Positions 16,007 through 64,000 are shown, counted from the first letter of the stretch. The stretch is 64,000 nucleotides of DNA from an uncultured Methanosarcinales archaeon (GCA_964414985.1 CAYPXA010000002.1:2710-66709), one strand, 5' to 3'. Numbers and translations are program-made. Notes: a model not told the origin generated them from the sequence alone.

Positions 16007-16026
16007 TTTTAATTTTGTTTTTAAAT

Positions 16027-17151: not shown

Positions 17152-17576
17152 TTTTTCAGCAGCTCCAGCACTTTAGCTTCTGTCAAATTGGTGTATATCT
17201 TCTTGTTAATCATCATTGCAGGCGCCTTGTCGCAGCAGCCTATGCATGAGCCTATGTGAAGAGAAAACCTGCCATTCTTTGTTGTCTCTCCTGATTTTAT
17301 TTTCAGCTCCCTCTCAATTATTTTTATTATGTCAATTGAGCCGTTGAGGTAGCATGACGGAGAGTTGCATATCTCAATCAAATATTTGCCCTGCTTCTGC
17401 GTGTAGATGTTTGCATAGAATGATGCAGCAGCATAAATTCTTGAGACAGGCATTTTAAGCTCCCTGCTTATCTTTTTCATTGCTTCTTCTGAAACATAGC
17501 CTTTCCTATTCTGCTCTTTGTGAAGCCTTGGAAGAAGCTCAGGGCATGCCGGGTAAGTCTCGTAATCCATAGCCAA
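17139..17576 (-). CDS. hydC: NuoE-like thioredoxin-fold [2Fe-2S] subunit
   Basis: Cys pattern CNSPSC ... CIGCCDKAP. Overlaps hydB by 13 nt. Confidence 0.8.
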   Translation of the reverse strand: MAMDYETYPACPELLPRLHKEQNRKGYVSEEAMKKISRELKMPVSRIYAAASFYANIYTQKQGKYLIEICNSPSCYLNGSIDIIKIIERELKIKSGETTKNGRFSLHIGSCIGCCDKAPAMMINKKIYTNLTEAKVLELLKKCRY

Positions 17577-18638: not shown

Positions 18639-18815
18639 ATGGTTAATGTAGTTGTCAATAATGGCCAGTACAAGATTACAATACCTAAAGATATTGCTCT
18701 CGAAAAAGGCTGGGATTCAAAGACAAAATTAAGGTTTGTTGAAGACGCAGAAGGAAACATAATTCTAAGGGAAATTGTTGATGCTCAAAGCAAGGCAAAG
18801 GGTGGGAGAAAATGA
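18639..18815 (+). CDS. AbrB/SpoVT-type (swapped-hairpin) small DNA-binding protein, 58 aa
   Basis: MVNVVVNNGQYKITIPKDIALEKGWDSKTKLRFVEDAEGNIILREI matches the xxITIPKxIxxxLG...GDxL...ILR pattern. It is not in the ORF track because it is under 60 aa. Its TGA overlaps the ATG of the giant ORF. Confidence 0.6.
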   Translation: MVNVVVNNGQYKITIPKDIALEKGWDSKTKLRFVEDAEGNIILREIVDAQSKAKGGRK

Positions 18816-30800: not shown

Positions 30801-32548
30801 TTATCGAAGTCCTTAAGGAGATGGAGCAGCAGCAGGAATTTTCTGAAGAGGAGATTTTCCTTGTGACAGACGCAGTCAACAGCATGTCAAGGGTTGCAAA
30901 CCTGCTTGCAGAAGGCCAAATTTCAGACCAGGATGCAATGGACGAAATGAGCAGGATAAATTCAAACCTAAAGGGAGGCGGCTCAAGGCTTACTGGAAGG
31001 CTTGCAGGAGTGCTTGATGAAGAGGATGATGAATTCGGAGTTTTGGCAATGCTGATGATTGCAGCAATAGTCATCCTGATAGTTGCTATTGCTGTGAGAA
31101 CAAGAAGTGCTGGCAGAAAAAAAGCTTCAGCAGGAGGAAAAGAAAGAAACACTCCAAGAAGGTTTGAGCTTGCTGCATCATGGGTGTCGAGGAAGATTGC
31201 AGGCATCAGGAATAAAAACAGGCAGAAGCAGTTCAGCCATGAAAAGAATGTTCCGCTGACAAGATTCTTTGAAAAGAAGGCATCTTCAGAAAGGCAGAAA
31301 ACCCTTGTTGAAGGGATTGCATCAGAAGCAGCAAGGGTGCAGAACAAAATCAGGCAGAATTCATATGCTCCAAGGCGCGAAAGAAGGTACAGGGCGATAA
31401 TAAGAAAGATGCTTTCAGCTGCTGAAGAAAAGAGAATGGCAAGGATAAACAGGCTGAATGATGCCAAACAGAATGCGGTTGAAAAAGAGCTGAATTTCAG
31501 GAAGGCTGTTCCAGAAGACTTCCTTGCAGTCCCAAGGGATTTGGAAACAGCAAAAAAAGCAAGAATTTTAATATTAATAGCATCATTTAAAAAGAAACTG
31601 CACGAAAACATGATGAGAAGGAATGCAATGAAGAATGTACACTCTGAAAAAGTCAGGGAAAACGGCCGCACAATCACAAAGATGAAGGCTTCTGAGCTGT
31701 TTTCCGCAATAGACAGCTATAAGACCCAGGAAGACACCTGCAAGGGCATGATAAGCAATGCAAAAGACTACAGCATTGCAGACGATTATGAAAAAGGCTC
31801 AAGGTATTCTTCAGTTGAGGAGAGCAGGGCTGTTGTAGGCATAAGGAACACAATCAACGCAATAAGCGAAACTGAAACTGCAAAAAGCATTATGGAAAAG
31901 GCAAGGCAGATTCCAAAGCCAAGCATAAGGATGATAACAAGAAGGCTTCCGAGAATAAGAATGCCTGATGTTAATGCAGGAGCTGCAATTGAGGGAATAA
32001 AAGCTGCAGCTGCAGACAGGGCGCAGAAAGGAATTGAAAATGCAAGAAGCGCAGTGTCAAAGGCAGCTGATGCAGTAAGGAGCTCAAGGCTCCTGAACAA
32101 GGAAGAGGACAGCAGCCTCGGAATTGAGTTTGATGAAAAAGGAATGAAGAAGCATGTTCCAAAGCCTGCAGCAGCAAAGCCCAGGCCAGGAAAGAATTCA
32201 AAAAGAAGATACCAGTCAATAATCTCAAGCATAAAGAGGAACTACCTGCCCAAAAAAGAGAACGGCATGATTGAGCTTTTAAAAGACGCTGCAGAAAAGG
32301 AAAATGTAGAAGAAAGGCTTGATGTCATCGAAGGCAGGAAGGAGCTGCTTGAAAATGACAAGATAAAATACTTTGCATGGAACTGGGGCAGGAAGAAAAG
32401 CATGCCCAGCAGCGTGATAAGAAAAGCATATCCTTCAGAAAAGGATGCAGAGGCATTCCAGAGCACTGATTCAGAGATTGACGCAGTTGCCAACGACAAG
32501 AAGCAGGCAATGCAGAAGCTCAAGGACATTTACACGAAAAGCGAGTGA
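18812..32548 (+). CDS. Giant surface glycoprotein (4,578 aa): signal peptide, jelly-roll/MAM-like domains, FN3/Ig-like arrays, DNRLRE-type domain, single TM, roughly 480-aa charged cytoplasmic tail
   Basis: Signal peptide MKKSFLTGVCLISALMILAFASIAASA. Nine 95-aa tandem repeats. A TWNNRP/FRLDNRNARTQRA block is present. TM helix VLAMLMIAAIVILIVAIAV lies near 31038-31100. NxS/T sequons are very dense. Confidence 0.9.
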   Translation: MKKSFLTGVCLISALMILAFASIAASAQTADESLNELFAAELSFSATETGIEGTLLDEYVSQQAVFTEKTDSSNEESLMNILADGLKEESESRYSASAKASIFSNGFEDSTGEGISGFNSSVWTALYGTDGDEAYIQTAMKHSGTYAARLEEGDEGDVELITASGAINLEGKENCTLSFWMRQESVEGGEYCYIDIYNGTWQNSVLSFTDTENEGSWNEEEISLGVFNPGSNFRLRFRVEYGQDNDYLVVDDIEISCNEGADTTPPGKATKLDSAFVSQEWIYWNWTNPSDADFSHAIVYIDGDWKANTTLNYYNATGLEPFTNCKIDVYTADTSGNVNPSSSTKTKRTAKSEINVSATVSDPDNKVVNTTIIISDENGTVSYNETGDYHELNILQGIYNIQVQPASHPVKSISIKNAELVEENSNIVLLDIPPNLKGTKNYVINPLINFTNATIVSVAEDIYLYKCASWNFTARECPDGWEKLMNLTIGEEYSFTITPGDPAYSENGSVPVINSISDSPDPVNQSKNIVITANVTDEYKVSKVWVKISGTNYTMQKINANVSKLFTDGFERATLGANWTTSGAGAAWTTTQWEGGPYQGSYSAYTENTGGESIVTSSRSTANYENVTFSFYALTTGMDTGEYIAADWYNGTAWVNLLNTQTIAAYTLYSYPLGTASRNNANFQVRFRCSSNANNERCHVDNVNITARKIYPIYRYAYNTSNLIGGLHYYTVYANDTGGNNAAPKTGNFTVKEYIKPSVFGLIPVAGTSYQTNITIQIAANATDFSGISKVIAMIDYPNSTKYNLTLTNAAGAKYNASFTIPMLAGRYNITIFANDTGNNINNTQKTYFTATGNADLNPTSNSPADQQVELGSIASIPWILYDDVSPGYYYVKRNGTLFYGPEAWTNGSILNIKPNTFFLGSWAYTIYYNDSYGNNGTSDTVIITVVDNITANCSDLPFADSGAPLLKSITVNGEMSDWDSVLEDPANVMTDLSTIAGDLDIVGTADRDITLFSYTWNESHLFTLWNRVATGKNIASMLMYIDYGNDGYMNSTDKVLKFTWSGSNRQYDADIYNYIPAGGTPDLMNGSGYDMPGSITNNKSISTGILGGAISGIALETMVKWSDIFLSGPEPLTIQPGSALSTGTNLPSQLEDNINVVQTNYPALLFRPATTSKSAQNGTSAYYLHELVGCGLTHDTFDLANTSTQGWAITYYYPNGTLVSDTNSDGKPDVHLDYNDYTALIAKIDVPGSTLFGTTDTTTITATSEFRPSYYRQVQDITTVGDITITPNQIITCGVNGSNSSFSYTVSNFQGFADTIEISGTSSYGWNVLLYDENMTIYTDTDGDSHIDLGNMSAGSEKTVNVILQIPAAASRGTNDTVTMRINSSVSPSMTATATGKATVSKRVEIYPDYNVSVGVLSGTFFELNVKNCQCKPDTIDITYWARVGWNTTFYQTDKTNLLLDTDFDSVQDVGNLSSCGGTYKMYAKIVAPPNPPSNDTILVYANTSRMPMAYDTSTINLFAQKVTTYSNAARTTPSAVFEVKSTVYAKASGLESINNVYFVWVDPDSVIKRVSPDLPVSSQDEADDALATNISLVLGNWTIIVYDAQNDDELGRNIFLLRDTQKPKITLNEPPLNYKTRNGTIKFNWTATDNYDMNLSCNLTINSMVYASNVSSPNGTKTSYTVSGLADGYYRWNVTCIDDSRNKNTSITRNFTVDHTNPKLYLASPVNYYNTSLTSVNFTWNATDNVDPWLSCNLSIDGKVNVSNIASQNSKLKTQAVSGFIEGLHNWSVVCWDDLNNKNYSQTRYFTVDNTKPNVVLNYPPNQFNTTLSTINFNWTATDNLDPVLKCNLTINGTVYAANRNSPSGVPTNYTVTGIADGTYYWNVTCADDSGNKNTSITRIFTRDTKAPQIQFVYPTTETGNYSQSWIYTNVTAYDKNLKNITTYLYNTTGLVSAQSSTASPLQHNFTSLPEGKYYINATAYDYTGNKNSTETRVIILDRTKPSVVLNYPPNNYNSSSGTINFNWTAYDNMDAILVCNLTINGTVYASNINSPNATPVNYTVSGLSDGHYSWNVTCIDNANNKNTSETRTFTVDSVKPSVALNWPPNSYNTSSTSINFNWTATNGIDPVLDCNLTIDGVVNKSNIASPAGAPTNYTVSGFAQGYHSWNVTCRDDSGNYNTSETRTFLVDYTAPSIALNYPPNYFNTSSSSINFNWTAADNYDALLRCNLTINGTVYASNRNSPSGTPTNYTVSSLVDGTYYWNVTCADDSGNYNTSETRIFTKDTTKPNVVLNAPINNYNTSSAAISFNWTAYDNLDPVLKCNLTINGTVYASNINSPTGIATNYTVTGLADGVYTWNVTCADNLGNYNTSETRIFTKDTTNPTVILNSPAANYYENISTASKLMAFNCSATDNIALKNISLYLTNSSNQSFMFNSTSALSGTSDSAQWQISLKPGNYTWNCIAYDRLGNYDWGVNRTIRIRYVPMVNPYVDLLAPANNSYDSNGQVTFKYNVTNTYPISNCTLYLNGTAYMTDFSVTRNISESLQITNLGEGVWNWVISCTNNMGSTGNSSSGVIIVQFPYNWTNATLIINETIMNADGQPISAVIELIDSRSGEIDTNTTSGTLQNITSGTYDIVIKPSILNITSIILANVSVTANITDIIDIDNFTTSEYSFANTFAISPLIDDYDFINITRQAETGDIFICDEWNFTNQSCTGEWLKTGNYNPGDNYSIAYYGNGSFAFVESNYTINLLNQNNFLIRNSQTETSQAGSIVDVLLVPVDSSVFRNITVTAHNTLSVSNDLKIDIIPNRTGFVQSYLIDPAALNFINATLYKNASNRSVSVWKCLNYSYEEEACMEDLIFVSSIASNSDYMIFFNATDPVFIEQPGPLDGKDSYINEQAPTTNYGNADEFRLDNRNARTQRAIIEWNLSGIPSGVQITSAVMGMYLHTQTGGAMSTQAVRVNQTWAEATVTWNNRPTFDATAYDTVSVSTIGWNYWNITSLAASWYNGTFANQGLYIKPATEQAGTTNLLKRFYSSDYITDITLRPKLNITWMDITPPNVTLNYPPANFVNTTSGQNINFNCSATDNVNLTNISLYITNSQNLSFSLNQTSSITGTANESTWTVYLGAGNYTWNCKAYDTQGLYDWGINRTIKLTPMMDNTPPSVIITSPLNDTLFNQSSNISIKANVTDDYGVSTVFANVTWDSAYETITLSYNGTSGLWEGVFTNTTFIGFYNITIWANDTSSNINNTEYVSVRVGKYKIKGYITNSNYSNVPSAVYLYNLSGALLAQDNEVYEFFMDQGKMYNLRVVPSAGSLKELYFFNATVSADVINFTRLEDTNNSIASRPYYDFNWTELVSWLPHPNLEFSYVRLNMTYGAGSNLSLFKCAAWDFDSQNCTNPQNWTVISQIADGPSYILYNFTKGDPAVGAGPGDQIPTTTLNYPPDNYVNSTASPANVTFNCSASDTTGTNKGIVNISLYITNSNNASFSLNQTYYSPTNGTTLTGIFSLLLGTGNYTWNCIAYDLGGNYDWADQNRTLKVNYTSMDNTAPSVILVSPTPGQNFNQTNYVLIAVNATDDYAVDTVLANVTWDSTYQQIALVYNSGTGLYEANFTNTTYVVSIPERYNISIFANDTSGNVNNSITGYFYVNDITPPYISIIQPANNSNYALNQNVSISVNVTDYYYDNVNAVYANITWSGGTQTISLTETGNTQIFTGTFTNTTAFGIYNITVFANDTSSNSNTKKGYFNVIQATVIISGITCSLTESPQVVESGEKILFQGDFSYSDGKPAAQANVSQANITIYRVNSTNTTIVHTSTMAFLQSGIWYYNWDAGAYENANYMAVANVKTNAVPPGYASCSALFTISGRGVFKVLGISPDLTNVNQTVKLGVEVTFNGEDVDSSKITNPELWVAKVNGSTQHYNSSTGLSVADGLIYLDGQFNETGVYYLNWSFTYYNRTKTAKEIVVAKDWDEKLSNLSMNSEVYQLVLENKQRLIEVLKEMEQQQEFSEEEIFLVTDAVNSMSRVANLLAEGQISDQDAMDEMSRINSNLKGGGSRLTGRLAGVLDEEDDEFGVLAMLMIAAIVILIVAIAVRTRSAGRKKASAGGKERNTPRRFELAASWVSRKIAGIRNKNRQKQFSHEKNVPLTRFFEKKASSERQKTLVEGIASEAARVQNKIRQNSYAPRRERRYRAIIRKMLSAAEEKRMARINRLNDAKQNAVEKELNFRKAVPEDFLAVPRDLETAKKARILILIASFKKKLHENMMRRNAMKNVHSEKVRENGRTITKMKASELFSAIDSYKTQEDTCKGMISNAKDYSIADDYEKGSRYSSVEESRAVVGIRNTINAISETETAKSIMEKARQIPKPSIRMITRRLPRIRMPDVNAGAAIEGIKAAAADRAQKGIENARSAVSKAADAVRSSRLLNKEEDSSLGIEFDEKGMKKHVPKPAAAKPRPGKNSKRRYQSIISSIKRNYLPKKENGMIELLKDAAEKENVEERLDVIEGRKELLENDKIKYFAWNWGRKKSMPSSVIRKAYPSEKDAEAFQSTDSEIDAVANDKKQAMQKLKDIYTKSE
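23669..26262 (+). repeat. Nine tandem Ig-like coding repeats, period 285 nt (one interval is 282)
   Basis: The D-x-T-K/N-P repeat starts were read at 23672, 23957, 24242, 24527, 24809, 25094, 25379, 25664 and 25949. Confidence 0.9.
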
Positions 32549-56944: not shown

Positions 56945-58642
56945 CTAGTTGTGCGTGAACCAGAATTCCAGCTTTGAAGGCGATTTTTTGTCAAGCCTTG
57001 CAAACGCAAGCCTTTCCATCTGGACTACATCCCCTTCTTTTGCCTTTGAAAGCCCTTCTTCAGCTATGCCTTCAATTATGCTGTTGTCAGGCATCCTTAT
57101 GCTTGCCTTAACAACAGGAGTGTCTCTTGAAAGCCAGTGGACTATCACATTGCCTGCATCTTTGTACTTCTCATACTCCACGCTGTGGAATATGAAGTTT
57201 TGGCCCTTCTTCACAAAATTGAGGCAGTCCATGAGCCTGTAAATATTTCCCTCGCTGAATTTCTTCAGGTCATCCCTTTCAACATAAAACCTTTCCTTGA
57301 CTTTGAAATTTCTCCCGCCTTTTTTTGTTTCAGGGTGCAGGTCAAGCTCAATCTCCTGTTCAGGAGCTCCTTCTATGTCAAGTTCAACAGGGTCTTTTAT
57401 GAAAAAATACCTCTGCGCACTTTCGTCAAGTATCTTCCTGTTTATTGCTGCAAGCACGCTGAAGTCAAGGTTTGTCTGGGTCTTTGACATTCCGCACGCT
57501 ACAGCAAGCTCGTAGAATGCATCCTTTACAATGCCCCTTCTCTTAAGCGCCCTTAGGGTGATAAGCTTCGGGTCGTCCCATCCGCTTGCTTCGCCGCTTT
57601 CAATCATCGCCCTGATTTCCCGTCCCTGTGTTACAGCGCCTGTTATGTTGAACCTTCCGTACTGCCTTATCTCCTGGTGCTGCAGGCCAAGAAGGTCCTG
57701 GATGTGCCTGTGGAGCTCAATCCTGTCCTGGAACTCATTGCTCCTAAGGACATGAGTTACTCCGCACAGCGCATCTTCTATAGGATTCTCAAAATCATAC
57801 ATTGGCCAAACCTTGAACTTTTTTCCCTGCCTGTAATGCTCTGCATCAACAATCCTCATTATGACAGGGTCCCTCATTACTGCATTCTTATGGTCCATGC
57901 TTACCTTGAGCCTGAGCGAGCATTCTCCTTCCTTGTACTTTCCTTCTTTCATGCCTTCCCAAAGCTCTTCAGTGTTTTTCTGGGCTCTGCATTTGCATTC
58001 CTCCATGCTTCTTCTCATTCTGGAGATGTCCTCGCTTTTGCAGAAGCAGACATATGCATTTCCTTTCTTAATCAGCTGCTCGGCATATGCATAGTACTTG
58101 GGCATGTTGTCTGATGCATAAACAGTCCTGTCAGGCTTTATCTCAAGGTATTCCAGGACATCCTTGTTCATTGCATCAACAAATTCCTGGCTTTCCTTTT
58201 CAGGGTTTGTGTCCTCAAACCTAAGGACAGCTTTTCCATTGTACTTTTTTGCATAAAGATAATTTATAAGAAAGCTTAGCGCGTGGCCAAGATGGTTGTA
58301 TTTTGACGGCTCTGGAGGAATCCTTGTCACAACCTTTCCATCTACTGCATTTGGCAGCTCAGGCAGCTCCTTCCTTTTCTCCTTCCTTTCCTTCTTCTGC
58401 TGCTTCTGCTCGTCAAAGTAATCCGGGTTTAGCTTGAGGATTTCTGCCTTCTGCTTTTCAAGCCCGAGCGAATTGACTTCCTTTACAATCTCTGAAATCA
58501 GCTTCATTGCAGCCTTTGCGTCCTTCCTAAGCTCTTCATGGCTTCCCATCAGCTTTCCGACTATTGCTCCAGGGTTTGCCTTTCCGCCGAACTTGACTGC
58601 GTTTTCAAGTACATGCTTCCTAATCTCAGATTCAATTGCCAT
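56945..58642 (-). CDS. gltX: Glutamyl-tRNA synthetase, archaeal/eukaryal type
   Basis: Motifs PEPSKYNHLGHA (HIGH) and RFEDTNPEKE. Archaeal-style N-terminal helical domain. Confidence 0.88.
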   Translation of the reverse strand: MAIESEIRKHVLENAVKFGGKANPGAIVGKLMGSHEELRKDAKAAMKLISEIVKEVNSLGLEKQKAEILKLNPDYFDEQKQQKKERKEKRKELPELPNAVDGKVVTRIPPEPSKYNHLGHALSFLINYLYAKKYNGKAVLRFEDTNPEKESQEFVDAMNKDVLEYLEIKPDRTVYASDNMPKYYAYAEQLIKKGNAYVCFCKSEDISRMRRSMEECKCRAQKNTEELWEGMKEGKYKEGECSLRLKVSMDHKNAVMRDPVIMRIVDAEHYRQGKKFKVWPMYDFENPIEDALCGVTHVLRSNEFQDRIELHRHIQDLLGLQHQEIRQYGRFNITGAVTQGREIRAMIESGEASGWDDPKLITLRALKRRGIVKDAFYELAVACGMSKTQTNLDFSVLAAINRKILDESAQRYFFIKDPVELDIEGAPEQEIELDLHPETKKGGRNFKVKERFYVERDDLKKFSEGNIYRLMDCLNFVKKGQNFIFHSVEYEKYKDAGNVIVHWLSRDTPVVKASIRMPDNSIIEGIAEEGLSKAKEGDVVQMERLAFARLDKKSPSKLEFWFTHN

Positions 58643-58749
58643 GCTTTTTAGTTATATGCCGTGTTTTATAAACTTTATTGAAAACATTAAATCAAAAAGT
58701 ATATAAACAGAATGAAGAACTAAACTTCATCAATATTTGAAGGTGCAAA

Positions 58750-58968
58750 ATGGCTCAAAAAAGGAACACGCTCATACCAAGGGCTCCTGCAGCAAGAATT
58801 CTGATTAAGGCAGGCGCGAAAAGGGTTTCTGCAGAGGCTGCAGAGGCGTTTGCAGCATACCTTGAGGAAGCAGGGCTCAAGATTGCAGAAGACTCCATCA
58901 AGGCAGCAAAGCATGCAGGCAGGAAGACAGTGCATGATTCTGACATAAGGCTTGCAGCAAGGCGATAG
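58750..58968 (+). CDS. Archaeal histone (HMf family)
   Basis: IPRAPAARILIKAGAKRVSAEAAEAFAAYLEEAGLKIAEDSIKAAKHAGRKTVHDSDIRLA matches the histone fold consensus. Confidence 0.88.
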   Translation: MAQKRNTLIPRAPAARILIKAGAKRVSAEAAEAFAAYLEEAGLKIAEDSIKAAKHAGRKTVHDSDIRLAARR

Positions 58969-58977
58969 TTCAGTTAG

Positions 58978-58987
58978 TTTTATAATA
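58978..58987 (+). promoter_or_regulatory. TATA-like box for tRNA-Ala
   Basis: TTTTATAATA lies about 25-30 nt upstream of tRNA position 1. Confidence 0.45.
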
Positions 58988-59011
58988 CTGCCATGTTTCT
59001 GCTTTTCACAC

Positions 59012-59100
59012 GGGCTGGTGGCGAAATGGTATCGCGCCGCATTGGCTAACTAAACAATCCAAACATGCGGAGGCTCCGGGTTCGAATCCCGGCCAGTCCA
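59012..59100 (+). tRNA. tRNA-Ala(GGC) with a 17-nt intron (59048-59064) at 37/38
   Basis: Cloverleaf folded by hand. Contains the G3:U70 alanine identity pair and the T-arm CCGGG-TTCGAAT-CCCGG. Anticodon stem is CCGCA/TGCGG. Exon TTGG pairs with intron CCAA. Confidence 0.85.
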
Positions 59101-59107
59101 TTTTTTT
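59101..59107 (+). terminator. Oligo-T terminator after tRNA-Ala
   Basis: A T7 run lies immediately 3' of the discriminator base. Confidence 0.5.
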
Positions 59108-59250
59108 GCCATGCTTTTTGCGCATGGATTTTTGATTTTAAGTTTTACATCAAGAAGCCGGGTGCATTTTGCTAATTGCATGCTATTCCATACATTTTAT
59201 TCCACAAAATATTTATAGTATCCTCCTTTTCTTTTTTAAGGGTGGTTTAA

Positions 59251-59733
59251 ATGAAGATACTGACTGTAGTTGTGCCGATAGTCGTGCATGAAGGAAAAGT
59301 CCTTATGCTTAAGAGAATCAAGCCGCCTTATGCAGGATACTGGTCTTTGCTCGGCGGAAAAATAGACTTTGGCGAGCATCCCGAGCAGTCTGCTGTCAGG
59401 GAGATAAGGGAGGAGGCAGGGATTGAGACAGAGCTTGTCAAGTTCAGGGGGATACTTTCTGAAGTAGTTAAAGACAAGGCTACAATGGAGAATGTCGAGC
59501 ACTTCATACTTTTTGTTTCTGAAATGAGGCCTAAAACTTTGGACATAAAAAGCTCTGAAGAAGGCGAGCTGAAATGGTTTGACATTGCAACTCTTGAGCA
59601 GAACAAGGGCATTGCTCCCAGCGATATAGAAATAGTAAGAAAGATACTCCAAAAAGAGGAAGGCATTCCTGTGCACAAGTCTGACGTGCTGAAGGATGGA
59701 CTTGCCTACTACTGCGAGGCGTTTGGGAAATGA
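59251..59733 (+). CDS. Nudix hydrolase
   Basis: Nudix box GGKIDFGEHPEQSAVREIREEAGI. Confidence 0.85.
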   Translation: MKILTVVVPIVVHEGKVLMLKRIKPPYAGYWSLLGGKIDFGEHPEQSAVREIREEAGIETELVKFRGILSEVVKDKATMENVEHFILFVSEMRPKTLDIKSSEEGELKWFDIATLEQNKGIAPSDIEIVRKILQKEEGIPVHKSDVLKDGLAYYCEAFGK

Positions 59734-60413
59734 ACCTTTACCTTTTTGATATGGATGACACTCTTTTGAATGTGCAGCATGTACATAAGGAGGCGTTTGA
59801 AACTTTTTTTAAGGAGGCTACAGGGACTGACAGCTCTTTCCAGAGAATGTTTGGGACTGAAGGTGAATTTGGAATTCCTCCAGGCATTGAAAGAACCACC
59901 CACAATCTCATAAGGCACGCTCTCAATGGAAGAGTGCCAGGCATAGAAATTGAGAGGAGCATGCAGAATGCAGTCGACTCAATGGTTTACTTGTACATGT
60001 CAAAGGTAAACCCTCTTTTCCTGCATTCAAATGTGCCTCATGTGCTTGACAGCCTCGGAGAATATGGGATGGTTGCAATGTTTACAGGAGGCGCAAGAAA
60101 AGTGACGCATGCAATACTGCAGAAGACAGGCATCCGCTCAAAATTCCAGCACATCTCAACATGCGATGACGCTCCAACAAGAAATGAGATTGTTGCGCAC
60201 GCAATAAAAAATGCATCGCTAGGGGTGAAATTTGACAAGATATTTGTAATAGGGGATGACATTGCAGATATTGAGGCTGCAAAGGCAAACAATGCAGTTG
60301 CAGTCGGTGTAGCAATGGGATTCAGCTCAAAGGAAGAGCTAAAGCAGGCAGGCGCAGACATAATAATTGAAGACTGGAAAGACTCGAAATGGGTCATGGA
60401 GAAGCTGAAATGA
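59730..60413 (+). CDS. HAD-superfamily phosphatase
   Basis: Motif I FDMDDTLL and motif IV IGDDIADIEAA. ATGA overlap with the upstream gene. Confidence 0.8.
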   Translation: MNLYLFDMDDTLLNVQHVHKEAFETFFKEATGTDSSFQRMFGTEGEFGIPPGIERTTHNLIRHALNGRVPGIEIERSMQNAVDSMVYLYMSKVNPLFLHSNVPHVLDSLGEYGMVAMFTGGARKVTHAILQKTGIRSKFQHISTCDDAPTRNEIVAHAIKNASLGVKFDKIFVIGDDIADIEAAKANNAVAVGVAMGFSSKEELKQAGADIIIEDWKDSKWVMEKLK

Positions 60414-60787
60414 AAGACTCTTTTGAAAATCTTGTTTTGAACATAAGGAAGTGCAGGAAGGAATGCCCCTGGATGAAAATGCAGACTCTTGAGAAGCATT
60501 CCAACGAGCTTTTTGATGAGCTAAATGAGGTTGTGCAGGCAATCAGAAACAATGACCCTGAAAATTTGAAGGAAGAGCTTGGCGACCTTCTCCACGATGT
60601 TCTCTGCCTTGTTGAATTTGCTTCTGAAAAATTCGGGTTTACTGCAAAGGATGTAATGGACGGAGTAACAAAGAAAATGGTCAGGAGAAAGCCATGGGTT
60701 TTCGGGAATGAGAAGGCAGAAACTCCTGAAGCAGCTGTAAAAAGATGGAATGAAATCAAGAAGCTTGAGAAGGAGGGAAAAATATGA
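60410..60787 (+). CDS. mazG: MazG-type nucleoside triphosphate pyrophosphohydrolase
   Basis: CPWMKMQT...ELFDELNEVVQAI...EELGDLLHDV...RRKPWVF. The ATG at 60410 forms an ATGA overlap (the track start 60389 is less likely). Confidence 0.8.
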   Translation: MKDSFENLVLNIRKCRKECPWMKMQTLEKHSNELFDELNEVVQAIRNNDPENLKEELGDLLHDVLCLVEFASEKFGFTAKDVMDGVTKKMVRRKPWVFGNEKAETPEAAVKRWNEIKKLEKEGKI

Positions 60788-61245
60788 TTATTCCTGCACA
60801 TTCAGAAGTTACCCGTGATTTTGTTGTTACAGTTTATATTGTAAACAACGAAAAAGTGCTTTTGATGCACCACAAAAAGCTGGGCATGTGGCTTCCTCCC
60901 GGAGGGCATATTGACCCAAATGAGCTTCCGACAGAAGCTGCGATAAGGGAGGCAAAGGAAGAAACCGGCCTTGACATTGACCTTGCCGGCGAGCAGACTG
61001 ACTACGGGCCTGTTGTTGTGCTTCATCATCCCAAATTTTTAAAGCTGGAAGACATCAAGCCCGGCCACCAGCACATAGACCTTGTTTATTTTGGCAGGAT
61101 GAAAGACCCTAAACAGAAGATTGTATTCAATGAGCACGAGTCAAATGACCTTAGGTGGTTTTCAAGGGATGAACTGGATGCTGTTAATACAGTTGACCCT
61201 ACTATTTCTATACAGGCAAAAAAGGCAATGGATGAATTAAAATGA
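60784..61245 (+). CDS. Nudix hydrolase (second copy, different subfamily)
   Basis: Nudix box PGGHIDPNELPTEAAIREAKEETGL. Confidence 0.85.
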   Translation: MIIPAHSEVTRDFVVTVYIVNNEKVLLMHHKKLGMWLPPGGHIDPNELPTEAAIREAKEETGLDIDLAGEQTDYGPVVVLHHPKFLKLEDIKPGHQHIDLVYFGRMKDPKQKIVFNEHESNDLRWFSRDELDAVNTVDPTISIQAKKAMDELK

Positions 61246-61796
61246 AGATTGCATTTGTTACAGGAAACAGGAACAAGTTTGAGGAAGACAAGGAGATTCT
61301 TGCGCAGCACGGCATTGAAATAGAGCATATCCAAATGGACCTGCCAGAGCTTCAGGCAGACCCCCAGGAGATTGCAAGGCACAAGGCAAAGTTTGCAGCT
61401 GAAAAGGCTGGAGTTGCCTGCTTTGTTGACGATACTGCACTCTGCTTCAATGCCCTTAACGGGCTTCCAGGAGAATACATCAAATTTTTTGTAGAAAAGC
61501 TGGGCCTTGATAACCTGGTCAAGCTGCTTGCAGGCTTTGAGGACAAGACTGCAAAGGCAATGGCAGTTATAGGATACTGTGAGCCTGGCAAAGAGCCTGT
61601 TGTTTTTGAGGGAGTTGTCAAAGGCACAATTGTTGCTCAGCGCGGGAAAAGGTTTGCATGGGACCCTATTTTTGTGCCTGAAGGATTCAGCCAGACCTAT
61701 GCTGAAATGCCTGTCTCCGAAAAGAATAAAATATCCCACAGGAAAAAGGCAGTCGACAAATTTGCAGAATATCTTAAGAAAGAGGTGCTGAAATGA
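61242..61796 (+). CDS. Ham1/ITPase-family non-canonical purine NTP pyrophosphatase
   Basis: Motifs FVTGNRNKFEE, DDTALCFNALNGLPGEYIKFF, FAWDPIF and KNKISHRKKA. Confidence 0.88.
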   Translation: MKIAFVTGNRNKFEEDKEILAQHGIEIEHIQMDLPELQADPQEIARHKAKFAAEKAGVACFVDDTALCFNALNGLPGEYIKFFVEKLGLDNLVKLLAGFEDKTAKAMAVIGYCEPGKEPVVFEGVVKGTIVAQRGKRFAWDPIFVPEGFSQTYAEMPVSEKNKISHRKKAVDKFAEYLKKEVLK

Positions 61797-62209
61797 ATGA
61801 TGCCAGCAAATGCTTGTTTTGCAGGATAATAAAAGGAGAGATTCCGTGCTCAAAGGTTTATGAGGATGAGAATTCCATTGCATTCCTTGACATCAGCCCT
61901 GTCAATAAAGGCCATGTTCTTGTCCTGCCAAAAAGCCATTTTGAAACAATCATAGATATTTCTGATGATGCGCTTTGTGCAGTATCAAAAGCATCAAAAA
62001 AGGTTGCAGCTGCTGTCCAGAAGGCGACAGGCTGCGATGGAATATCAATTTTGCAAAGCAACCTCCAGGCAGCAGGACAGGCTATAGACCACTATCACGT
62101 TCATGTCATTCCACGCTTTCATTCAGACGGGCTGAAGCACTGGCCGCAGGGAAAGTATGCCGAAGGAGAGGCAGCTGCTGTTGCTGACAAAATAAGGGGC
62201 AGATTATAA
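61793..62209 (+). CDS. HIT-family (histidine triad) nucleotide hydrolase
   Basis: Motifs CLFCRII and HYHVHVIPR. Confidence 0.88.
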   Translation: MNDASKCLFCRIIKGEIPCSKVYEDENSIAFLDISPVNKGHVLVLPKSHFETIIDISDDALCAVSKASKKVAAAVQKATGCDGISILQSNLQAAGQAIDHYHVHVIPRFHSDGLKHWPQGKYAEGEAAAVADKIRGRL

Positions 62210-62255
62210 AATTAAAATTGCGAGTGGGATACTTTTAAAATTCAGCTTTAACAAA

Positions 62256-62537
62256 ATGAAAAAATTAAAATTAATTTTAGGGGCTTTTGCTCTTTTTTCA
62301 GCAATGTTCATAATTTTTCTTTTTGAGATTTCATCAGGCAATAAGCCTGAATGCCATATCGATGAGATGGGCAGTGTTGATGAAGCCTGCCCTGGAGAGC
62401 TTTACTGCAACGAGGCCACTTTGAATGAAAGGACTGGCAAGGCAGAATGCCATACCTACCAGCAGTGCGTGGATTCAGGTGCGCCTTCAACAGGAGGGCC
62501 GGATTACCGCCCAAGAACATGTTTTGCAGGCATATAG
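62256..62537 (+). CDS. Small secreted or anchored Cys-rich protein (93 aa)
   Basis: N-terminal hydrophobic segment, with six Cys in the mature part. Confidence 0.5.
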   Translation: MKKLKLILGAFALFSAMFIIFLFEISSGNKPECHIDEMGSVDEACPGELYCNEATLNERTGKAECHTYQQCVDSGAPSTGGPDYRPRTCFAGI

Positions 62538-62563
62538 CCCTATTAGTTTTATTTAACAAAAAC

Positions 62564-62573
62564 TTTTATAAAT
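62564..62573 (+). promoter_or_regulatory. TATA-like box for tRNA-Met
   Basis: TTTTATAAAT lies about 26-35 nt upstream of tRNA position 1. Confidence 0.45.
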
Positions 62574-62598
62574 GAAACCCTGTTCTCATTGGTTAAAT

Positions 62599-62723
62599 GC
62601 CGCTGTAGCTCAGCCTGGTTTAGAGCGCTACGCTCATATGTTTTTGAGCGATGAGGCGAAAGCCGATGATTACAGCTTTACTGAGGCACGTAGAGGTCGT
62701 GGGCTCGAATCCCGCCAGCGGCA
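62599..62723 (+). tRNA. tRNA with CAU anticodon (elongator Met, or Ile2) carrying a 49-nt intron at 37/38
   Basis: Acceptor GCCGCTG/CAGCGGC, D-arm GCTC/GAGC, anticodon stem CTACG/CGTAG, loop CTCATA|intron|A, T-arm GTGGG-CTCGAAT-CCCGC. It is not initiator-like (G1:C72, and no 3xGC in the anticodon stem). Confidence 0.85.
62639..62687 (+). ncRNA. tRNA intron containing a K-turn (box C'/D'-like) motif and a D box
   Basis: AUGA (62651-54), then a GGC-GAAA-GCC hairpin, then GAUGAUU (62665-71), with CUGA at 62681-84. See the findings. Confidence 0.45.
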
Positions 62724-62810
62724 CTATTTTTCTTTTGTTTTCTTTTATTTTAGTTTTCTTTATCGCTTTTATTTTTTTCTTGCTTTGTTTTTTTGCTGTT
62801 TTCTTTTTTT
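62724..62810 (+). terminator. Long T-rich tract downstream of tRNA-Met (multiple oligo-T terminators)
   Basis: Nearly pure pyrimidine/T runs (tttttcttttgttttcttttattttag...). Confidence 0.45.
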
Positions 62811-62968
62811 TGCAAAACCAAACATTTATAAACAGCCCCCTTGCCCTTTCCGCTTCGTGAGTGAAGACAGCTGCGTACCTTTGGATTGATTCTGGGTATT
62901 TTCAGCGTCTTAAATGAAGGCTTGAAATAGCTAAAGCGATGAAAATATTCGGGAAAAGGTTCGAATGA

Positions 62969-63139
62969 ATGGATGAGAAGCGCAGCACAGCAAAAGGCAG
63001 GTTTTGGACTGCGCTGGTCTATATCCTTTGGCTGCTCACTGCTGCAAACTGGCTTAGGTCAGGCAAGATTGACTTAAGCGTTCTTGCAGTCACTTTCGGC
63101 GCGACATACATGATTGCAAAAAAGCATAATTTCAGCTAA
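62969..63139 (+). CDS. Possible small membrane protein (56 aa)
   Basis: MDEKRSTAKGRFWTALVYILWLLTAANWLRSGKIDLSVLAVTFGATYMIAKKHNFS has two hydrophobic segments. The RBS is weak. Confidence 0.3.
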   Translation: MDEKRSTAKGRFWTALVYILWLLTAANWLRSGKIDLSVLAVTFGATYMIAKKHNFS

Positions 63140-63153
63140 AACGGAGGGGAAGC

Positions 63154-64000
63154 ATGAATGGTATATGGATGTCAGAACATTTCAGGTCAAGAAAGCCGTC
63201 AGCAATCAGGCTGGCGCAAATTGAATTTGCAAAAAGAAAAGATAATGTGAGGGAAATAAATACTGCTATAGGCAATGTCTCACTGCCGATGCATCCTTTG
63301 CTCCAAAAAAGGATGTTCAGCCTTAATTCTGCGGAAAGCCCTTTTAATGCAGGAGTTGTCAAGTATTCTGCAACAGTCGGTATGCCTGAGGCAAGAGACG
63401 CTTTCTTAAACATAATCAGGGCGAGCGGGTGCAGCACAGACAGGCTTTTTGCGCAGATAACAGACGGAGGCTCACAGGCGATGGAGCTTTTGATTATAGG
63501 TTGCTGCGGGCCTGCAGGCACTGATGAAAAGCCATTGCTTTTGATTGATGCTGCATACACAAACTACAAGGCGATGGCATCAAGGCTTGGAAGAAGCATA
63601 ATCTCAATAGCCAGGCGCCTTGAGGACAATGGCAAATTCACGCTTCCGGAGCTTAGTGAAATAAAAAAGATTATAGCAGAGAAAAATCCTGGCGCTATTG
63701 TGGTGATACCTTATGACAACCCAACAGGCCATTTTTACGACCACAGCACAATGGTGGAGCTGGGAAAGCTCTGCGTTGAAAAAAACATATGGATGATAAG
63801 CGACGAAGCATACAGGGAGCTTTTTTATACAGGCTCAAAACCTTCGAGCATATGGGCATTGACAGAAGAGGAAGTGCCTGGAATAACCGGAAGAAGGATA
63901 AGCATAGAAACCTCCTCCAAGGTATGGAATGCATGCGGCCTTAGAATAGGCGCTCTTGTTACAGACAGCCAGGAATTTCATGAAAAATCTGTTGCAGAAA
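63154..64000 (+). CDS. Class I/II PLP-dependent aminotransferase (3' end outside the window)
   Basis: GGAGGGG RBS. Patterns NPTGHFY, SDEAYREL and SSKVWNACGLRIG (PLP-lysine context). The frame is open to the window end. Confidence 0.8.
   Translation, partial: MNGIWMSEHFRSRKPSAIRLAQIEFAKRKDNVREINTAIGNVSLPMHPLLQKRMFSLNSAESPFNAGVVKYSATVGMPEARDAFLNIIRASGCSTDRLFAQITDGGSQAMELLIIGCCGPAGTDEKPLLLIDAAYTNYKAMASRLGRSIISIARRLEDNGKFTLPELSEIKKIIAEKNPGAIVVIPYDNPTGHFYDHSTMVELGKLCVEKNIWMISDEAYRELFYTGSKPSSIWALTEEEVPGITGRRISIETSSKVWNACGLRIGALVTDSQEFHEKSVAE

What the first reader, a model, noticed from the sequence alone, without database searches (positions are those of the whole stretch)
62599..62723. The tRNA(CAU) intron carries a K-turn/box C'D'-like motif and an antisense element that puts wobble C34 at the +5 methylation position
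The 49-nt intron (62639-62687) sits at 37/38 in a canonical BHB. Exon CUCA (C32-A35) pairs with intron UGAG at 62682-62685. The bulges are UA|U and GC|A.

Inside the intron:
- AUGA (62651-54), then the GGC-GAAA-GCC hairpin (62655-64), then GAUGAUU (62665-71). This has exact K-turn geometry: the GA of AUGA abuts the canonical stem, the opposite strand has a 3-nt bulge then GA, then U.U. The fourth pair is U-A where the box C/D consensus (UGAUGA/CUGA) has G-C, so it is changed on both strands.
- A consensus D box CUGA lies at 62681-84, and a C-like GCGAUGA at 62648-54 offers an alternative pairing.
- The 12 nt from the 5' splice site to AUGA (UGUUUUUGAGCG) end in UGAGCG, the perfect complement of tRNA C30-A35 (CGCUCA). 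Counting from AUGA as a D' box, the fifth guide nucleotide pairs with C34.

Intron-encoded box C/D guides for Cm34 are established for archaeal pre-tRNA-Trp. Cm34 of elongator tRNA-Met is guided by a stand-alone sRNA in Haloferax. A compact cis-encoded version in a tRNA-Met intron would be a different solution. The same exon bases pair with either UGAG copy, which implies a guide/BHB conformational switch.
Basis: partly seen in the sequence, partly recalled or inferred. Interest (0 to 1): 0.65.

Follow-up and report, generated by a model that had tools for sequence, protein, structure and literature searches.

The report
Self-targeting methylation guide in tRNA-Met intron
The intron of this archaeal methionine tRNA gene carries a small protein-binding kink (K-turn) next to a short stretch complementary to the tRNA's own anticodon loop, an arrangement conserved in distant archaea that most likely directs 2'-O-methylation of the wobble base C34 before the intron is spliced out.

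Summary
The tRNA(CAU) at 62599-62723 has a 49-nt intron at 37/38 in a canonical bulge-helix-bulge. The intron reads guide UGAGCG, AUGA, GGC-GAAA-GCC, GAU bulge, GAUU. This fits a K-turn of the box C'/D' type, and the fifth nucleotide upstream of AUGA pairs with C34.

It is not chance. The same module sits in tRNA-Met introns of three metagenomic relatives with otherwise unalignable introns, one with a GluRS only 37% identical. It also occurs in a Nanohaloarchaea MAG, two Hadesarchaea MAGs and Nanoarchaeum equitans. C34 is at N+5 in all of them. Guide position 2 covaries with tRNA nucleotide 31, and the K-turn stem shows compensatory changes.

The N. equitans intron was published in 2012 as a stable C/D-like RNA with no predicted target, so the element is not new. 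The self-target assignment and its breadth appear to be new.

It is only the splice helix, so there is a single K-turn ("half-mer").

Methylation, L7Ae/Nop5/fibrillarin binding and presence of those genes in this genome remain untested.

Verdict: probable cis-encoded Cm34 guide; new variant of a known kind.

The parts
62599..62723 (+). Intron-containing tRNA(CAU) gene, most likely elongator tRNA-Met. G1-C72, anticodon stem CUACG/CGUAG, discriminator A, unusual C54 at 62704.
   Evidence: Rfam RF00005, 52.7 bits; sequence read. It is not an initiator: there is no A1-U72 and no three G-C pairs in the anticodon stem. Met rather than Ile2 is inferred from homology of the intron module with N. equitans, which has no tRNA-Ile2(CAU).
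62639..62687 (+). 49-nt intron at the canonical 37/38 position.
   Evidence: Read. The anticodon stem closes only if 62639-62687 is removed.
62631..62636 (+). Target strand C30 G31 C32 U33 C34 A35. C34, the predicted 2'-O-methylation site, is 62635.
   Evidence: Perfect Watson-Crick complement of 62645-62650. This hairpin is part of the unconstrained minimum-energy fold. The local hairpin has a predicted energy of -9.2 kcal/mol.
62637..62644 (+). 8-nt loop (U36 A37 plus UGUUUU) between target and guide in the cis hairpin. It includes the 5' splice site, 62638|62639.
   Evidence: It is the only part of the tRNA that differs in a near-identical variant found in another sequencing run (62643 T>A, 62644 deleted).
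62645..62650 (+). Antisense (guide) element UGAGCG. G62646 is the fifth nucleotide upstream of the D'-like box and pairs with C34.
   Evidence: (U)UGAGCG is invariant in relatives L123, L124, L126, L127, L129 and L132. The same register holds in L045, L060, L112 and N. equitans.
62651..62654 (+). D'-like box AUGA, the non-bulged strand of the K-turn. A54 and G53 form the sheared pairs, U52 the U.U pair, A51 the 4n position.
   Evidence: It is AUGA in the six metagenomic relatives and consensus CUGA in the Nanohaloarchaea MAG, the Hadesarchaea MAGs and N. equitans.
62655..62664 (+). K-turn canonical (C) stem GGC/GCC capped by a GAAA tetraloop.
   Evidence: Compensatory variants are GAC/GUC, GAU/GUC, CCC/GGG and GCCC/GGGU. 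Pair 38-49 reads GC x5, CG x1, GU x1; pair 39-48 reads AU x3, CG x2, GC x2.
62665..62672 (+). C'-like box. It comprises the 3-nt bulge GAU (62665-67), then G68 A69 (sheared G.A and A.G with A54 and G53), U70 (U.U with U52), U71 (pairs with A51) and A72.
   Evidence: NAU-GA-Y is conserved in every lineage.
62646..62678 (+). Intron-internal helix GAGC (62646-49) with GCUU (62675-78). In the splice-competent fold it carries the K-turn hairpin at its tip and sequesters most of the guide.
   Evidence: RNAfold of the intron alone and the fold constrained to the bulge-helix-bulge.
62682..62685 (+). Second UGAG copy. It forms the central 4-bp helix of the bulge-helix-bulge with C32-A35. The 3' bulge is G62686 C62687|A62688.
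   Evidence: The equivalent positions in relatives read UGGG or similar, which keeps the pairing but not a CUGA box.
62564..62573 (+). TATA-like TTTTATAAAT, about 30 nt before the first base of the tRNA; the probable promoter.
   Evidence: Sequence only. The same spacing is seen for the second tRNA. Inferred, not tested.
62724..62816 (+). T-rich tract after the tRNA; probably oligo-T terminators.
   Evidence: Sequence only.

Best explanation
The intron of this elongator tRNA-Met encodes a minimal box C'/D'-type methylation guide with a single K-turn, aimed at the tRNA's own wobble nucleotide.

Proposed steps:
1. In the primary transcript the 5' part of the intron folds back, and UGAGCG (62645-50) pairs with C30-A35.
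2. The adjacent K-turn (AUGA / GGC-GAAA-GCC / GAU-GAUU) binds L7Ae, which recruits Nop5 and fibrillarin.
3. By the N+5 rule the methyltransferase acts on the 2'-OH of C34, giving Cm34.
4. The anticodon loop then re-pairs with the downstream UGAG copy (62682-85). This forms the bulge-helix-bulge, and the splicing endonuclease removes the intron.

Shown here: the sequence anatomy, its conservation and covariation across lineages, and the near-equal predicted stability of the two folds.

Inferred: L7Ae/Nop5/fibrillarin binding, the methyl transfer, the order of events, and whether the guide acts within one molecule or between two.
For: 1. Anatomy fits K-turn and C'/D' rules base by base, with C34 at N+5.
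2. The same module occurs in tRNA-Met introns of L124 and L129, of L123, L126 and L132, and of L127, while the rest of each intron is unalignable. The L123 organism is distant: its GluRS is 37% identical.
3. The same layout, with consensus CUGA and C34 at N+5, occurs in a Nanohaloarchaea MAG (L045, 7 bp) and two Hadesarchaea MAGs (L060 11 bp, L112 10 bp). In the Hadesarchaea the pairing runs into the first intron nucleotides, so the target must be the unspliced precursor.
4. The published N. equitans tRNA-Met intron reads CUAUGAGCU-CUGA-CCC-GAAA-GGG-GAU-GAUC. It is a stable, abundant RNA (coverage 31500) in an organism with 26 listed C/D sRNAs and a fibrillarin gene, NEQ125.
5. Covariation: nt31 with guide position 2 is G:C x6 and A:U x2. 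Two of three C-stem pairs have changes on both sides. 83% of cells are paired, against 46% or less when partners are slid. 0 of 500 shuffles reach the observed covariation score.
6. Specificity: an in-register guide occurs in 9 of 15 distinct introns with a K-turn-like motif and in 0 of 64 without.
7. The guide and splice folds score -36.2 and -36.3 kcal/mol.
8. Precedent: Cm34 of elongator tRNA-Met is made by C/D RNPs in Haloferax, predicted in Pyrococcus, and made by C/D RNPs in humans. The pre-tRNA-Trp intron guides its own Cm34.
Against: - There is only one K-turn. No terminal box C/D pair exists, and CUGA 62681-84 is not conserved. From my own knowledge, not checked here: efficient archaeal methylation normally needs juxtaposed C/D and C'/D' motifs (Tran et al. 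2003), so a natural half-mer is non-canonical.
- The duplex is only 6 bp here, plus U.U and one A-U. Curated archaeal predictions usually ask for about 9 bp.
- Pairing must open two base pairs of the anticodon stem.
- The D' box is AUGA, not CUGA.
- Close lineages with the same C54 tRNA lack the module (Woesearchaeota MAG L058; L125, L128, L130). It is therefore dispensable or replaceable.
- Some introns without a K-turn also carry a second complement to nt 30-36 (6 of 79, rich in G.U pairs). Complementarity alone is therefore not diagnostic.
- No fibrillarin, Nop5 or stand-alone C/D sRNA was found in the 64-kb window.
- No RNA or modification data exist for this organism.
Confidence: 0.7

Rival explanations
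1. The K-turn is an L7Ae-binding structural element that stabilises or chaperones the intron, for example to help form the splice motif, to time splicing, or to protect the excised and possibly circular intron. The nearby complement to the anticodon loop only provides an alternative fold. No methylation occurs.
For: - The K-turn sits at the tip of an intron helix in the splice-competent fold.
- The N. equitans intron is unusually stable.
- There is only one K-turn, which is all L7Ae binding needs but is atypical for a methylation RNP.
- Introns without a K-turn (L125, L128, L130) also keep a complement to nt 30-34.
Against: - This reading does not explain why the spacing between the K-turn and the nucleotide paired with C34 is exactly five in DPANN-like, Nanohaloarchaea, Hadesarchaea and N. 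equitans introns, while duplex length (6 to 11 bp) and the distance to the splice site (11 to 22 nt) vary.
- It does not explain why guide position 2 covaries with nt31.
Confidence: 0.15
2. The excised intron is a trans-acting guide for another RNA, such as rRNA or another tRNA. The match to its own anticodon loop is incidental.
For: - The pre-tRNA-Trp intron RNP can act in trans.
- The N. equitans intron accumulates as a free RNA.
Against: - The only sequence the guides share is the complement of the tRNA-Met anticodon loop. The Hadesarchaea guides extend into their own intron's first nucleotides.
- The published target search of N. equitans rRNAs returned 'no prediction'.
Confidence: 0.05
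3. The gene is tRNA-Ile2(CAU), whose C34 becomes agmatidine. The intron pairing then has some other role, such as shielding C34.
For: - The anticodon CAU and A73 fit both isotypes.
- No isotype-specific model could be run here.
- Some intron-bearing tRNA(CAU) genes in the survey have GGGCCC acceptor stems and may be Ile2.
Against: - The homologous module is in N. equitans, which has no tRNA-Ile2(CAU) at all and whose gene is described as elongator tRNA-Met.
- All module-bearing genes have GCCG... acceptor stems like the intron-bearing tRNA(CAU) of Methanobacteriaceae.
Confidence: 0.04
4. It is a chance resemblance in an ordinary intron.
For: K-turn-like hairpin patterns are common: 5 in the window against 8.8 expected.
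Against: - The joint pattern is rare in shuffles (0.2%). The consensus pattern is expected 0.22 times per window yet lies exactly in the intron.
- It is conserved across very divergent introns, with compensatory changes.
Confidence: 0.02

Closest known systems
Nanoarchaeum equitans elongator tRNA-Met intron RNA (Randau 2012, PMC3491384)
   Same: It lies in the 37/38 intron of elongator tRNA-Met. The order of elements is the same: complement of the anticodon loop, D'-type box, 3-bp stem with GAAA tetraloop, GAU bulge, GAU(Y). C34 is at N+5.
   Different: - N. equitans has consensus CUGA where the window has AUGA.
- Its stem is CCC/GGG, against GGC/GCC here.
- Its intron is 66 nt and has an extra GC-rich 3' hairpin.
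- The paper called the boxes C and D and reported no target.
- N. equitans is a hyperthermophile; the window comes from a sediment metagenome.
Box C/D guide in the pre-tRNA-Trp intron of Euryarchaeota (Clouet d'Orval 2001; Singh 2004)
   Same: The guide is intron-encoded and targets C34 of its own tRNA. The guide and splice conformations are mutually exclusive.
   Different: - tRNA-Trp carries a complete sRNA with C, D', C' and D boxes and two guides (Cm34 and Um39), in an intron that I recall as roughly 100 nt for Haloferax volcanii (my own recollection, not checked).
- Here there is one K-turn, one guide and a 49-nt intron, in a different tRNA.
Stand-alone guides for Cm34 of elongator tRNA-Met: Haloferax sR-tMet (Joardar 2011), the Pyrococcus sRNA, human SNORD97/SCARNA97
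   Same: The target nucleotide and the chemistry are the same. According to the Joardar 2011 title (cited) and my recollection of its abstract, which could not be read here, sR-tMet targets the intron-containing elongator pre-tRNA-Met, as the Hadesarchaea guides do.
   Different: Those guides are separate genes acting in trans with full C/D architecture. Here the guide is built into the substrate.
K-turn / K-loop L7Ae-binding motif
   Same: The C stem with a C-G pair next to the bulge, the 3-nt bulge, the tandem G.A/A.G pairs and the U.U at 3b.3n are all present in the sequence.
   Different: The 4b-4n pair is U-A where box C/D has G-C. In L123 and L126 these positions are C.U and A.A.

Membership tests
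Archaeal box C/D sRNA (2'-O-methylation guide) | Terminal box C (RUGAUGA) and box D (CUGA) forming a K-turn | tested here: not met
   There is no free C box. GCGAUGA 62648-54 overlaps the guide and D'. CUGA 62681-84 reads CUGG or GUGG in relatives and is the splice helix.
Archaeal box C/D sRNA (2'-O-methylation guide) | Internal D'/C' motif forming a K-turn or K-loop | tested here: met
   AUGA, GGC-GAAA-GCC, GAU-GAUU at 62651-62671. It is conserved, with compensatory stem changes.
Archaeal box C/D sRNA (2'-O-methylation guide) | Antisense element directly upstream of D/D', with the target nucleotide opposite position 5 | tested here: met
   UGAGCG pairs with C30-A35, and G62646 pairs with C34. 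The register is the same in all lineages.
Archaeal box C/D sRNA (2'-O-methylation guide) | Guide-target duplex of about 9-12 bp | tested here: inconclusive
   The duplex is 6 bp here, 7 bp in the Nanohaloarchaea MAG and 10-11 bp in the Hadesarchaea MAGs. The usual prediction criterion is about 9 bp. Pairing within one molecule may relax this.
Archaeal box C/D sRNA (2'-O-methylation guide) | Assembly with L7Ae, Nop5 and fibrillarin; genome encodes them | not testable with these tools
   None of these genes is in the 64-kb window. The rest of the genome could not be reached. N. equitans has fibrillarin NEQ125.
Archaeal box C/D sRNA (2'-O-methylation guide) | Target nucleotide is 2'-O-methylated in vivo | not testable with these tools
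   No RNA or modification data exist for this organism.
Intron-encoded tRNA self-guide (pre-tRNA-Trp type) | Guide lies in the 37/38 intron of the tRNA it targets and competes with the bulge-helix-bulge fold | tested here: met
Intron-encoded tRNA self-guide (pre-tRNA-Trp type) | Complete dual-guide sRNA (C, D', C', D) within the intron | tested here: not met
   A single K-turn and a single guide.
N. equitans-type tRNA-Met intron K-turn RNA | Anticodon-loop complement, then D' box, then short stem with GNRA loop, then NAU bulge, then GAY, inside an elongator tRNA-Met intron | tested here: met
   Aligned column by column with the published sequence.
N. equitans-type tRNA-Met intron K-turn RNA | Excised intron accumulates as a stable RNA | not testable with these tools
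   No transcriptome was found for this organism.
K-turn | Watson-Crick C stem, 3-nt bulge, tandem sheared G.A/A.G, then a non-canonical stem | tested here: met
   Met at the sequence level only. The kinked three-dimensional geometry was not tested.
Archaeal bulge-helix-bulge tRNA intron | Two 3-nt bulges separated by a 4-bp helix, with cleavage after the second bulge nucleotide | tested here: met
   CUCA/UGAG helix, with bulges UA|U and GC|A.
Elongator tRNA-Met (as opposed to initiator or tRNA-Ile2) | Isotype-specific sequence features | tested here: inconclusive
   Initiator is excluded: G1-C72 and no GGG/CCC in the anticodon stem. Met over Ile2 is inferred from homology of the module to N. 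equitans, which lacks Ile2(CAU). No isotype model was available.

The most novel reading that the evidence does not exclude
A natural C/D guide with one K-turn, built into its own substrate, is an old and widespread way of making Cm34 in archaeal elongator tRNA-Met. It would be found in DPANN lineages including Nanoarchaeota and Nanohaloarchaea, and in Hadesarchaea.

If so:
- Fibrillarin/Nop5 can be targeted in vivo by a half-mer, perhaps with two pre-tRNAs sharing one Nop5 dimer.
- It would give a selective reason why tRNA-Met keeps its intron.
- The K-turn-less introns with relic-like GUGCUCUGAC (Methanobacteriaceae) and the trans-acting sR-tMet of haloarchaea could be later replacements of this cis system.
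Probability: 0.35. Interest if true: 0.7.

Novelty: new variant of a known kind. Interest (0 to 1): 0.55.

Why it matters
- It assigns a concrete, testable target (the tRNA's own C34) to an intron RNA that was published in N. equitans without one.
- It shows the same device in several deep archaeal lineages, including mesophilic, uncultured DPANN-like organisms.
- If it works, it is the smallest natural C/D-type guide known: one K-turn and a 6- to 11-nt guide, acting on the molecule that carries it. That bears on how much RNA architecture fibrillarin/Nop5 really needs.
- It also bears on why elongator tRNA-Met so often keeps an intron.
- It links the three known routes to Cm34 of tRNA-Met: a guide in cis, a guide in trans, and the eukaryotic snoRNAs.
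- Practically, a covariance model of the module would improve annotation of archaeal tRNA introns.

Tried and rejected
1. Complete C/D sRNA reading (C = GCGAUGA 62648-54, D = CUGA 62681-84). Rejected: the C candidate overlaps the guide and D', there is no room for a C', and the D candidate is not conserved.
2. First genome contigs pattern, with the exact D-loop and variable arm: 0 hits.
3. Viral-contig scan: 2 irrelevant loci.
4. Search of the window for stand-alone C/D sRNAs as indirect evidence of the machinery. There was no convincing intergenic candidate, and the one regex hit lies inside a ParA-like gene.
5. Pfam scan of 20 window proteins for fibrillarin, Nop5 and L7Ae: none found.
6. 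Rfam at E <= 10 over 58500-64000: no C/D family overlaps the intron.
7. RNA-seq evidence: none. The one run found holds only a near-identical DNA-like contig.
8. Acceptor-stem typing (GCCG... against GGGCCC...) to separate Met from Ile2. Judged suggestive only, because haloarchaeal GGGCCC genes may themselves be Met.
9. Joardar 2011 and Clouet d'Orval 2001 could not be read.
10. The other two hits to the consensus pattern in the fetched loci (L009, L060 at 4874) are unstructured and look like chance.

Full report
**What is there**

Rfam's tRNA model places a gene at 62599-62723 on the + strand, at 52.7 bits against a gathering score of 29. ARAGORN does not find it.

Reading the sequence gives the following layout:
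- Acceptor stem GCCGCUG/CAGCGGC, discriminator A.
- D arm GCUC/GAGC.
- Anticodon stem CUACG/CGUAG.
- Anticodon loop C32 U33 C34 A35 U36 A37, then a 49-nt insert (62639-62687), then A38.
- T arm GUGGG/CCCGC with an unusual C54.

It is not an initiator. It has G1-C72 and lacks the three G-C pairs at the base of the anticodon stem.

The insert sits in a canonical bulge-helix-bulge. C32-A35 pair with UGAG 62682-85, flanked by the 3-nt bulges U36 A37|U and G C|A38.

**The module**

From its 5' end the intron reads:
- UGUUUU, a linker.
- UGAGCG (62645-50).
- AUGA (62651-54).
- GGC-GAAA-GCC (62655-64).
- GAU (62665-67).
- GAUUA (62668-72).

The rest is a helix partner (GCUU 62675-78) and the splice helix.

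AUGA followed directly by a Watson-Crick stem is the non-bulged strand of a K-turn. On the other strand the stem is followed by a 3-nt bulge, then G-A, then U. This gives the pairs G68.A54, A69.G53, U70.U52 and U71-A51. That is the box D'/C' arrangement, with U-A where the consensus has G-C.

UGAGCG is the perfect complement of C30-A35. Counting upstream from AUGA, the fifth nucleotide (G62646) pairs with C34.

The unconstrained minimum-energy fold of the precursor already contains this hairpin. The local hairpin has a predicted energy of -9.2 kcal/mol. Explicit guide and splice conformations score -36.2 and -36.3 kcal/mol.

**Is it more than chance?**

- A K-turn-hairpin pattern on its own is common: 5 in the window against 8.8 expected.
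- The K-turn together with an in-register guide of 6 bp or more appeared in 0.2% of shuffles of the intron.
- A consensus pattern derived from all lineages occurs once in the window, exactly here, against 0.22 expected per window.
- The decisive evidence is comparative, set out below.

**Relatives**

The window comes from sediment metagenomes. Identical contigs occur in four runs of one study. Another run holds the same tRNA in different flanks, with changes only in the U-rich linker.

A C54-specific version found 10 metagenome contigs.

C54 is shared with only one of the 119 genome hits, a Candidatus Woesearchaeota MAG (L058) whose exons resemble the window's. Other contents of the window are:
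- two ORFs of more than 4000 aa;
- an FeFe-hydrogenase cluster;
- FtsZ, a histone and a thermosome.

Together these point to a DPANN-type archaeon, but that placement is an inference.

**Conservation**

Six metagenome contigs carry the module in three variants:
- L124 and L129: UUGAGCG-AUGA-GGCGAAAGCC-GAUGAUU.
- L123, L126 and L132: CUUGAGCG-AUGA-GA(U/C)GAAAGUC-AAUGACA.
- L127: the same as the previous group but ending in GAUU.

The remaining intron sequence cannot be aligned between these groups or with the window. L123 encodes a GluRS only 37% identical to the window's, so these organisms are distant.

Outside this group the same layout, with a consensus CUGA box, occurs in:
- a Nanohaloarchaea MAG (L045): CUAUGAGCU-CUGA-GCCC-AUUU-GGGU-UAU-GAUC;
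- two Hadesarchaea MAGs (L060, L112)...CUAUGAGUG-CUGA-CCGAAAG-AUGAUGU, a K-loop.

In every case the nucleotide paired with C34 is the fifth upstream of the box. The Hadesarchaea duplexes are 10-11 bp and run into the first intron nucleotides, so the substrate must be the unspliced precursor.

**The published precedent**

Randau (2012, PMC3491384) reported that the 66-nt intron of N. equitans elongator tRNA-Met is a stable RNA with C/D-box features.

The paper's Additional file 2 gives the sequence GCATGGGCTATGAGCT-CTGA-CCC-GAAA-GGG-GAT-GATC-..., with coverage 31500 and 'no prediction' of a target. This is the same module, element for element. Its fifth nucleotide upstream of CUGA again pairs with C34.

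N. equitans has no tRNA-Ile2(CAU). The carrier there is therefore tRNA-Met, and by homology I read the window's gene as elongator tRNA-Met.

**Covariation**

On a nine-sequence alignment (A1) the guide helix plus the K-turn stem pair in 83% of cells, against 19-46% when partners are slid.
- nt31 with guide position 2 is G:C in six sequences and A:U in the two Hadesarchaea MAGs.
- The K-turn stem pairs read GC/CG/GU and AU/CG/GC.
- No shuffle of 500 reached the observed covariation score. These sequences are related, so this count is not a probability.

Among 79 distinct introns, the in-register guide is found only where a K-turn or K-loop is present: 9 of 15, against 0 of 64.

**What does not hold**

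- Relatives have CUGG or GUGG at the first site, which preserves pairing with C32-A35 but not the box.
- The second candidate is just guide plus D'.

So there is a single K-turn. That fails one defining feature of archaeal C/D sRNAs. It makes this a half-mer guide rather than a miniature copy of the tRNA-Trp intron sRNA.

**Cautions**

- The duplex is short here (6 bp plus U.U plus A-U), whereas curated predictions usually require about 9 bp.
- Two anticodon-stem pairs must open.
- Lineages with very similar exons lack the module (L058; L125, L128, L130). The latter three instead share GGGUCAG, complementary to nt 30-34, in a hairpin loop.
- Second-site complementarity without a K-turn occurs in 6 of 79 introns.
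- No fibrillarin, Nop5, L7Ae or stand-alone C/D sRNA lies in the window, and the rest of the genome was out of reach.
- No transcript or modification data exist.

**Mechanism**

The best-supported account has four steps:
1. The nascent precursor forms the guide-target hairpin.
2. L7Ae binds the K-turn and brings in Nop5 and fibrillarin.
3. C34 is 2'-O-methylated.
4. The anticodon loop switches to the downstream UGAG, forms the bulge-helix-bulge, and the intron is excised.

The anatomy, the conservation, the covariation and the energetic plausibility of the switch are shown. Every protein step is inferred. The inference rests on the N+5 rule and on the established C/D-guided Cm34 of elongator tRNA-Met in Haloferax and humans, together with the self-guiding tRNA-Trp intron.

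The main rival is an L7Ae-binding structural K-turn with no methylation. It cannot explain the fixed five-nucleotide register while duplex length and position vary.

**Comparison and novelty**

The element works like the tRNA-Trp intron guide and belongs to the N. equitans-type tRNA-Met intron RNA. It is not a full member of the box C/D sRNA family, because it has no terminal C/D pair.

In the searchable literature I found no statement that this intron targets its own C34, and no report of it outside N. equitans. A 2024 review lists only tRNA-Trp for intron-embedded guides. Two key papers could not be read, so this negative is provisional.

I rate it a new variant of a known kind, with interest 0.55.

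Noticed in passing
window 43-12273 (+) and 18812-32548 (+): Two giant ORFs of 4076 and 4578 aa. Such proteins are typical of DPANN and other ultra-small organisms. They were not scanned against any library.
   Followed up: no
window 59012-59100 (+): A second intron-containing tRNA. It has G3:U70 and anticodon GGC, so it is tRNA-Ala. It has a 17-nt intron at 37/38 (helix UUGG/CCAA) and an unusual U at position 37. ARAGORN reports it as an undetermined tRNA with a 4-base anticodon. Its intron has no K-turn.
   Followed up: partly
window 62704 (C54 of tRNA-Met): The T loop reads CUCGAAU instead of UUCGAAU. Among 119 genome hits only a Woesearchaeota MAG (L058) shares C54. The neighbouring tRNA-Ala has the normal U54, so the oddity is specific to tRNA-Met in this lineage.
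   Followed up: partly
window 62564-62573 and 58978-58987: TATA-like boxes (TTTTATAAAT and TTTTATAATA) lie about 30 nt before the first base of each tRNA. This implies very short or absent 5' leaders, reminiscent of the leaderless tRNAs of N. equitans, which lacks RNase P.
   Followed up: no
window 62724-62816: A tract of about 95 nt that is very T-rich follows the tRNA; probably stacked oligo-T terminators. Many short low-complexity contigs from other runs pile up here.
   Followed up: no
L125 1681-1764 (-), L128 3053-3142 (+), L130 649-725 (-): tRNA(CAU) genes with the same GCCGG... acceptor stem and C54 but no K-turn. Their otherwise different introns share GGGUCAG, complementary to nt 30-34, which is predicted to sit in a hairpin loop. 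Its function is unknown.
   Followed up: partly
L004, L016, L067 and about 70 other Methanobacteriaceae loci: Their 35-37-nt tRNA-Met introns conserve GUGCUCUGAC. This resembles the GAGCUCUGAC (guide plus D') of N. equitans and Nanohaloarchaea, but they have no C' box and no in-register guide. It may be a relic of the module.
   Followed up: partly
window 14333-17576 (-): A cluster resembling a trimeric FeFe hydrogenase: a HydA-like large subunit, a NuoF-like subunit and a thioredoxin-like 2Fe-2S subunit, in an archaeal genome.
   Followed up: no
window 56945-58642 (-) and L123 5216-6916: GluRS lies about 4 kb from tRNA-Met both in the window and in the distant relative L123 (37% amino-acid identity). 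This is a trace of conserved gene order.
   Followed up: no
L131 12037-12113 (+): The intron contains AAUGAUG ... CUGA, like C and D boxes only 8 nt apart. The 5' half of the gene is not tRNA-like, so it may be a multi-intron or split tRNA on an 817-kb contig.
   Followed up: no
L009, L039, L080 (Thermoproteota MAGs): Their tRNA(CAU) introns share GGAGUCG, complementary to G30-C34 of their own anticodon arm, followed by a GAAA-type or GAUA-type sequence but no UGA box.
   Followed up: no
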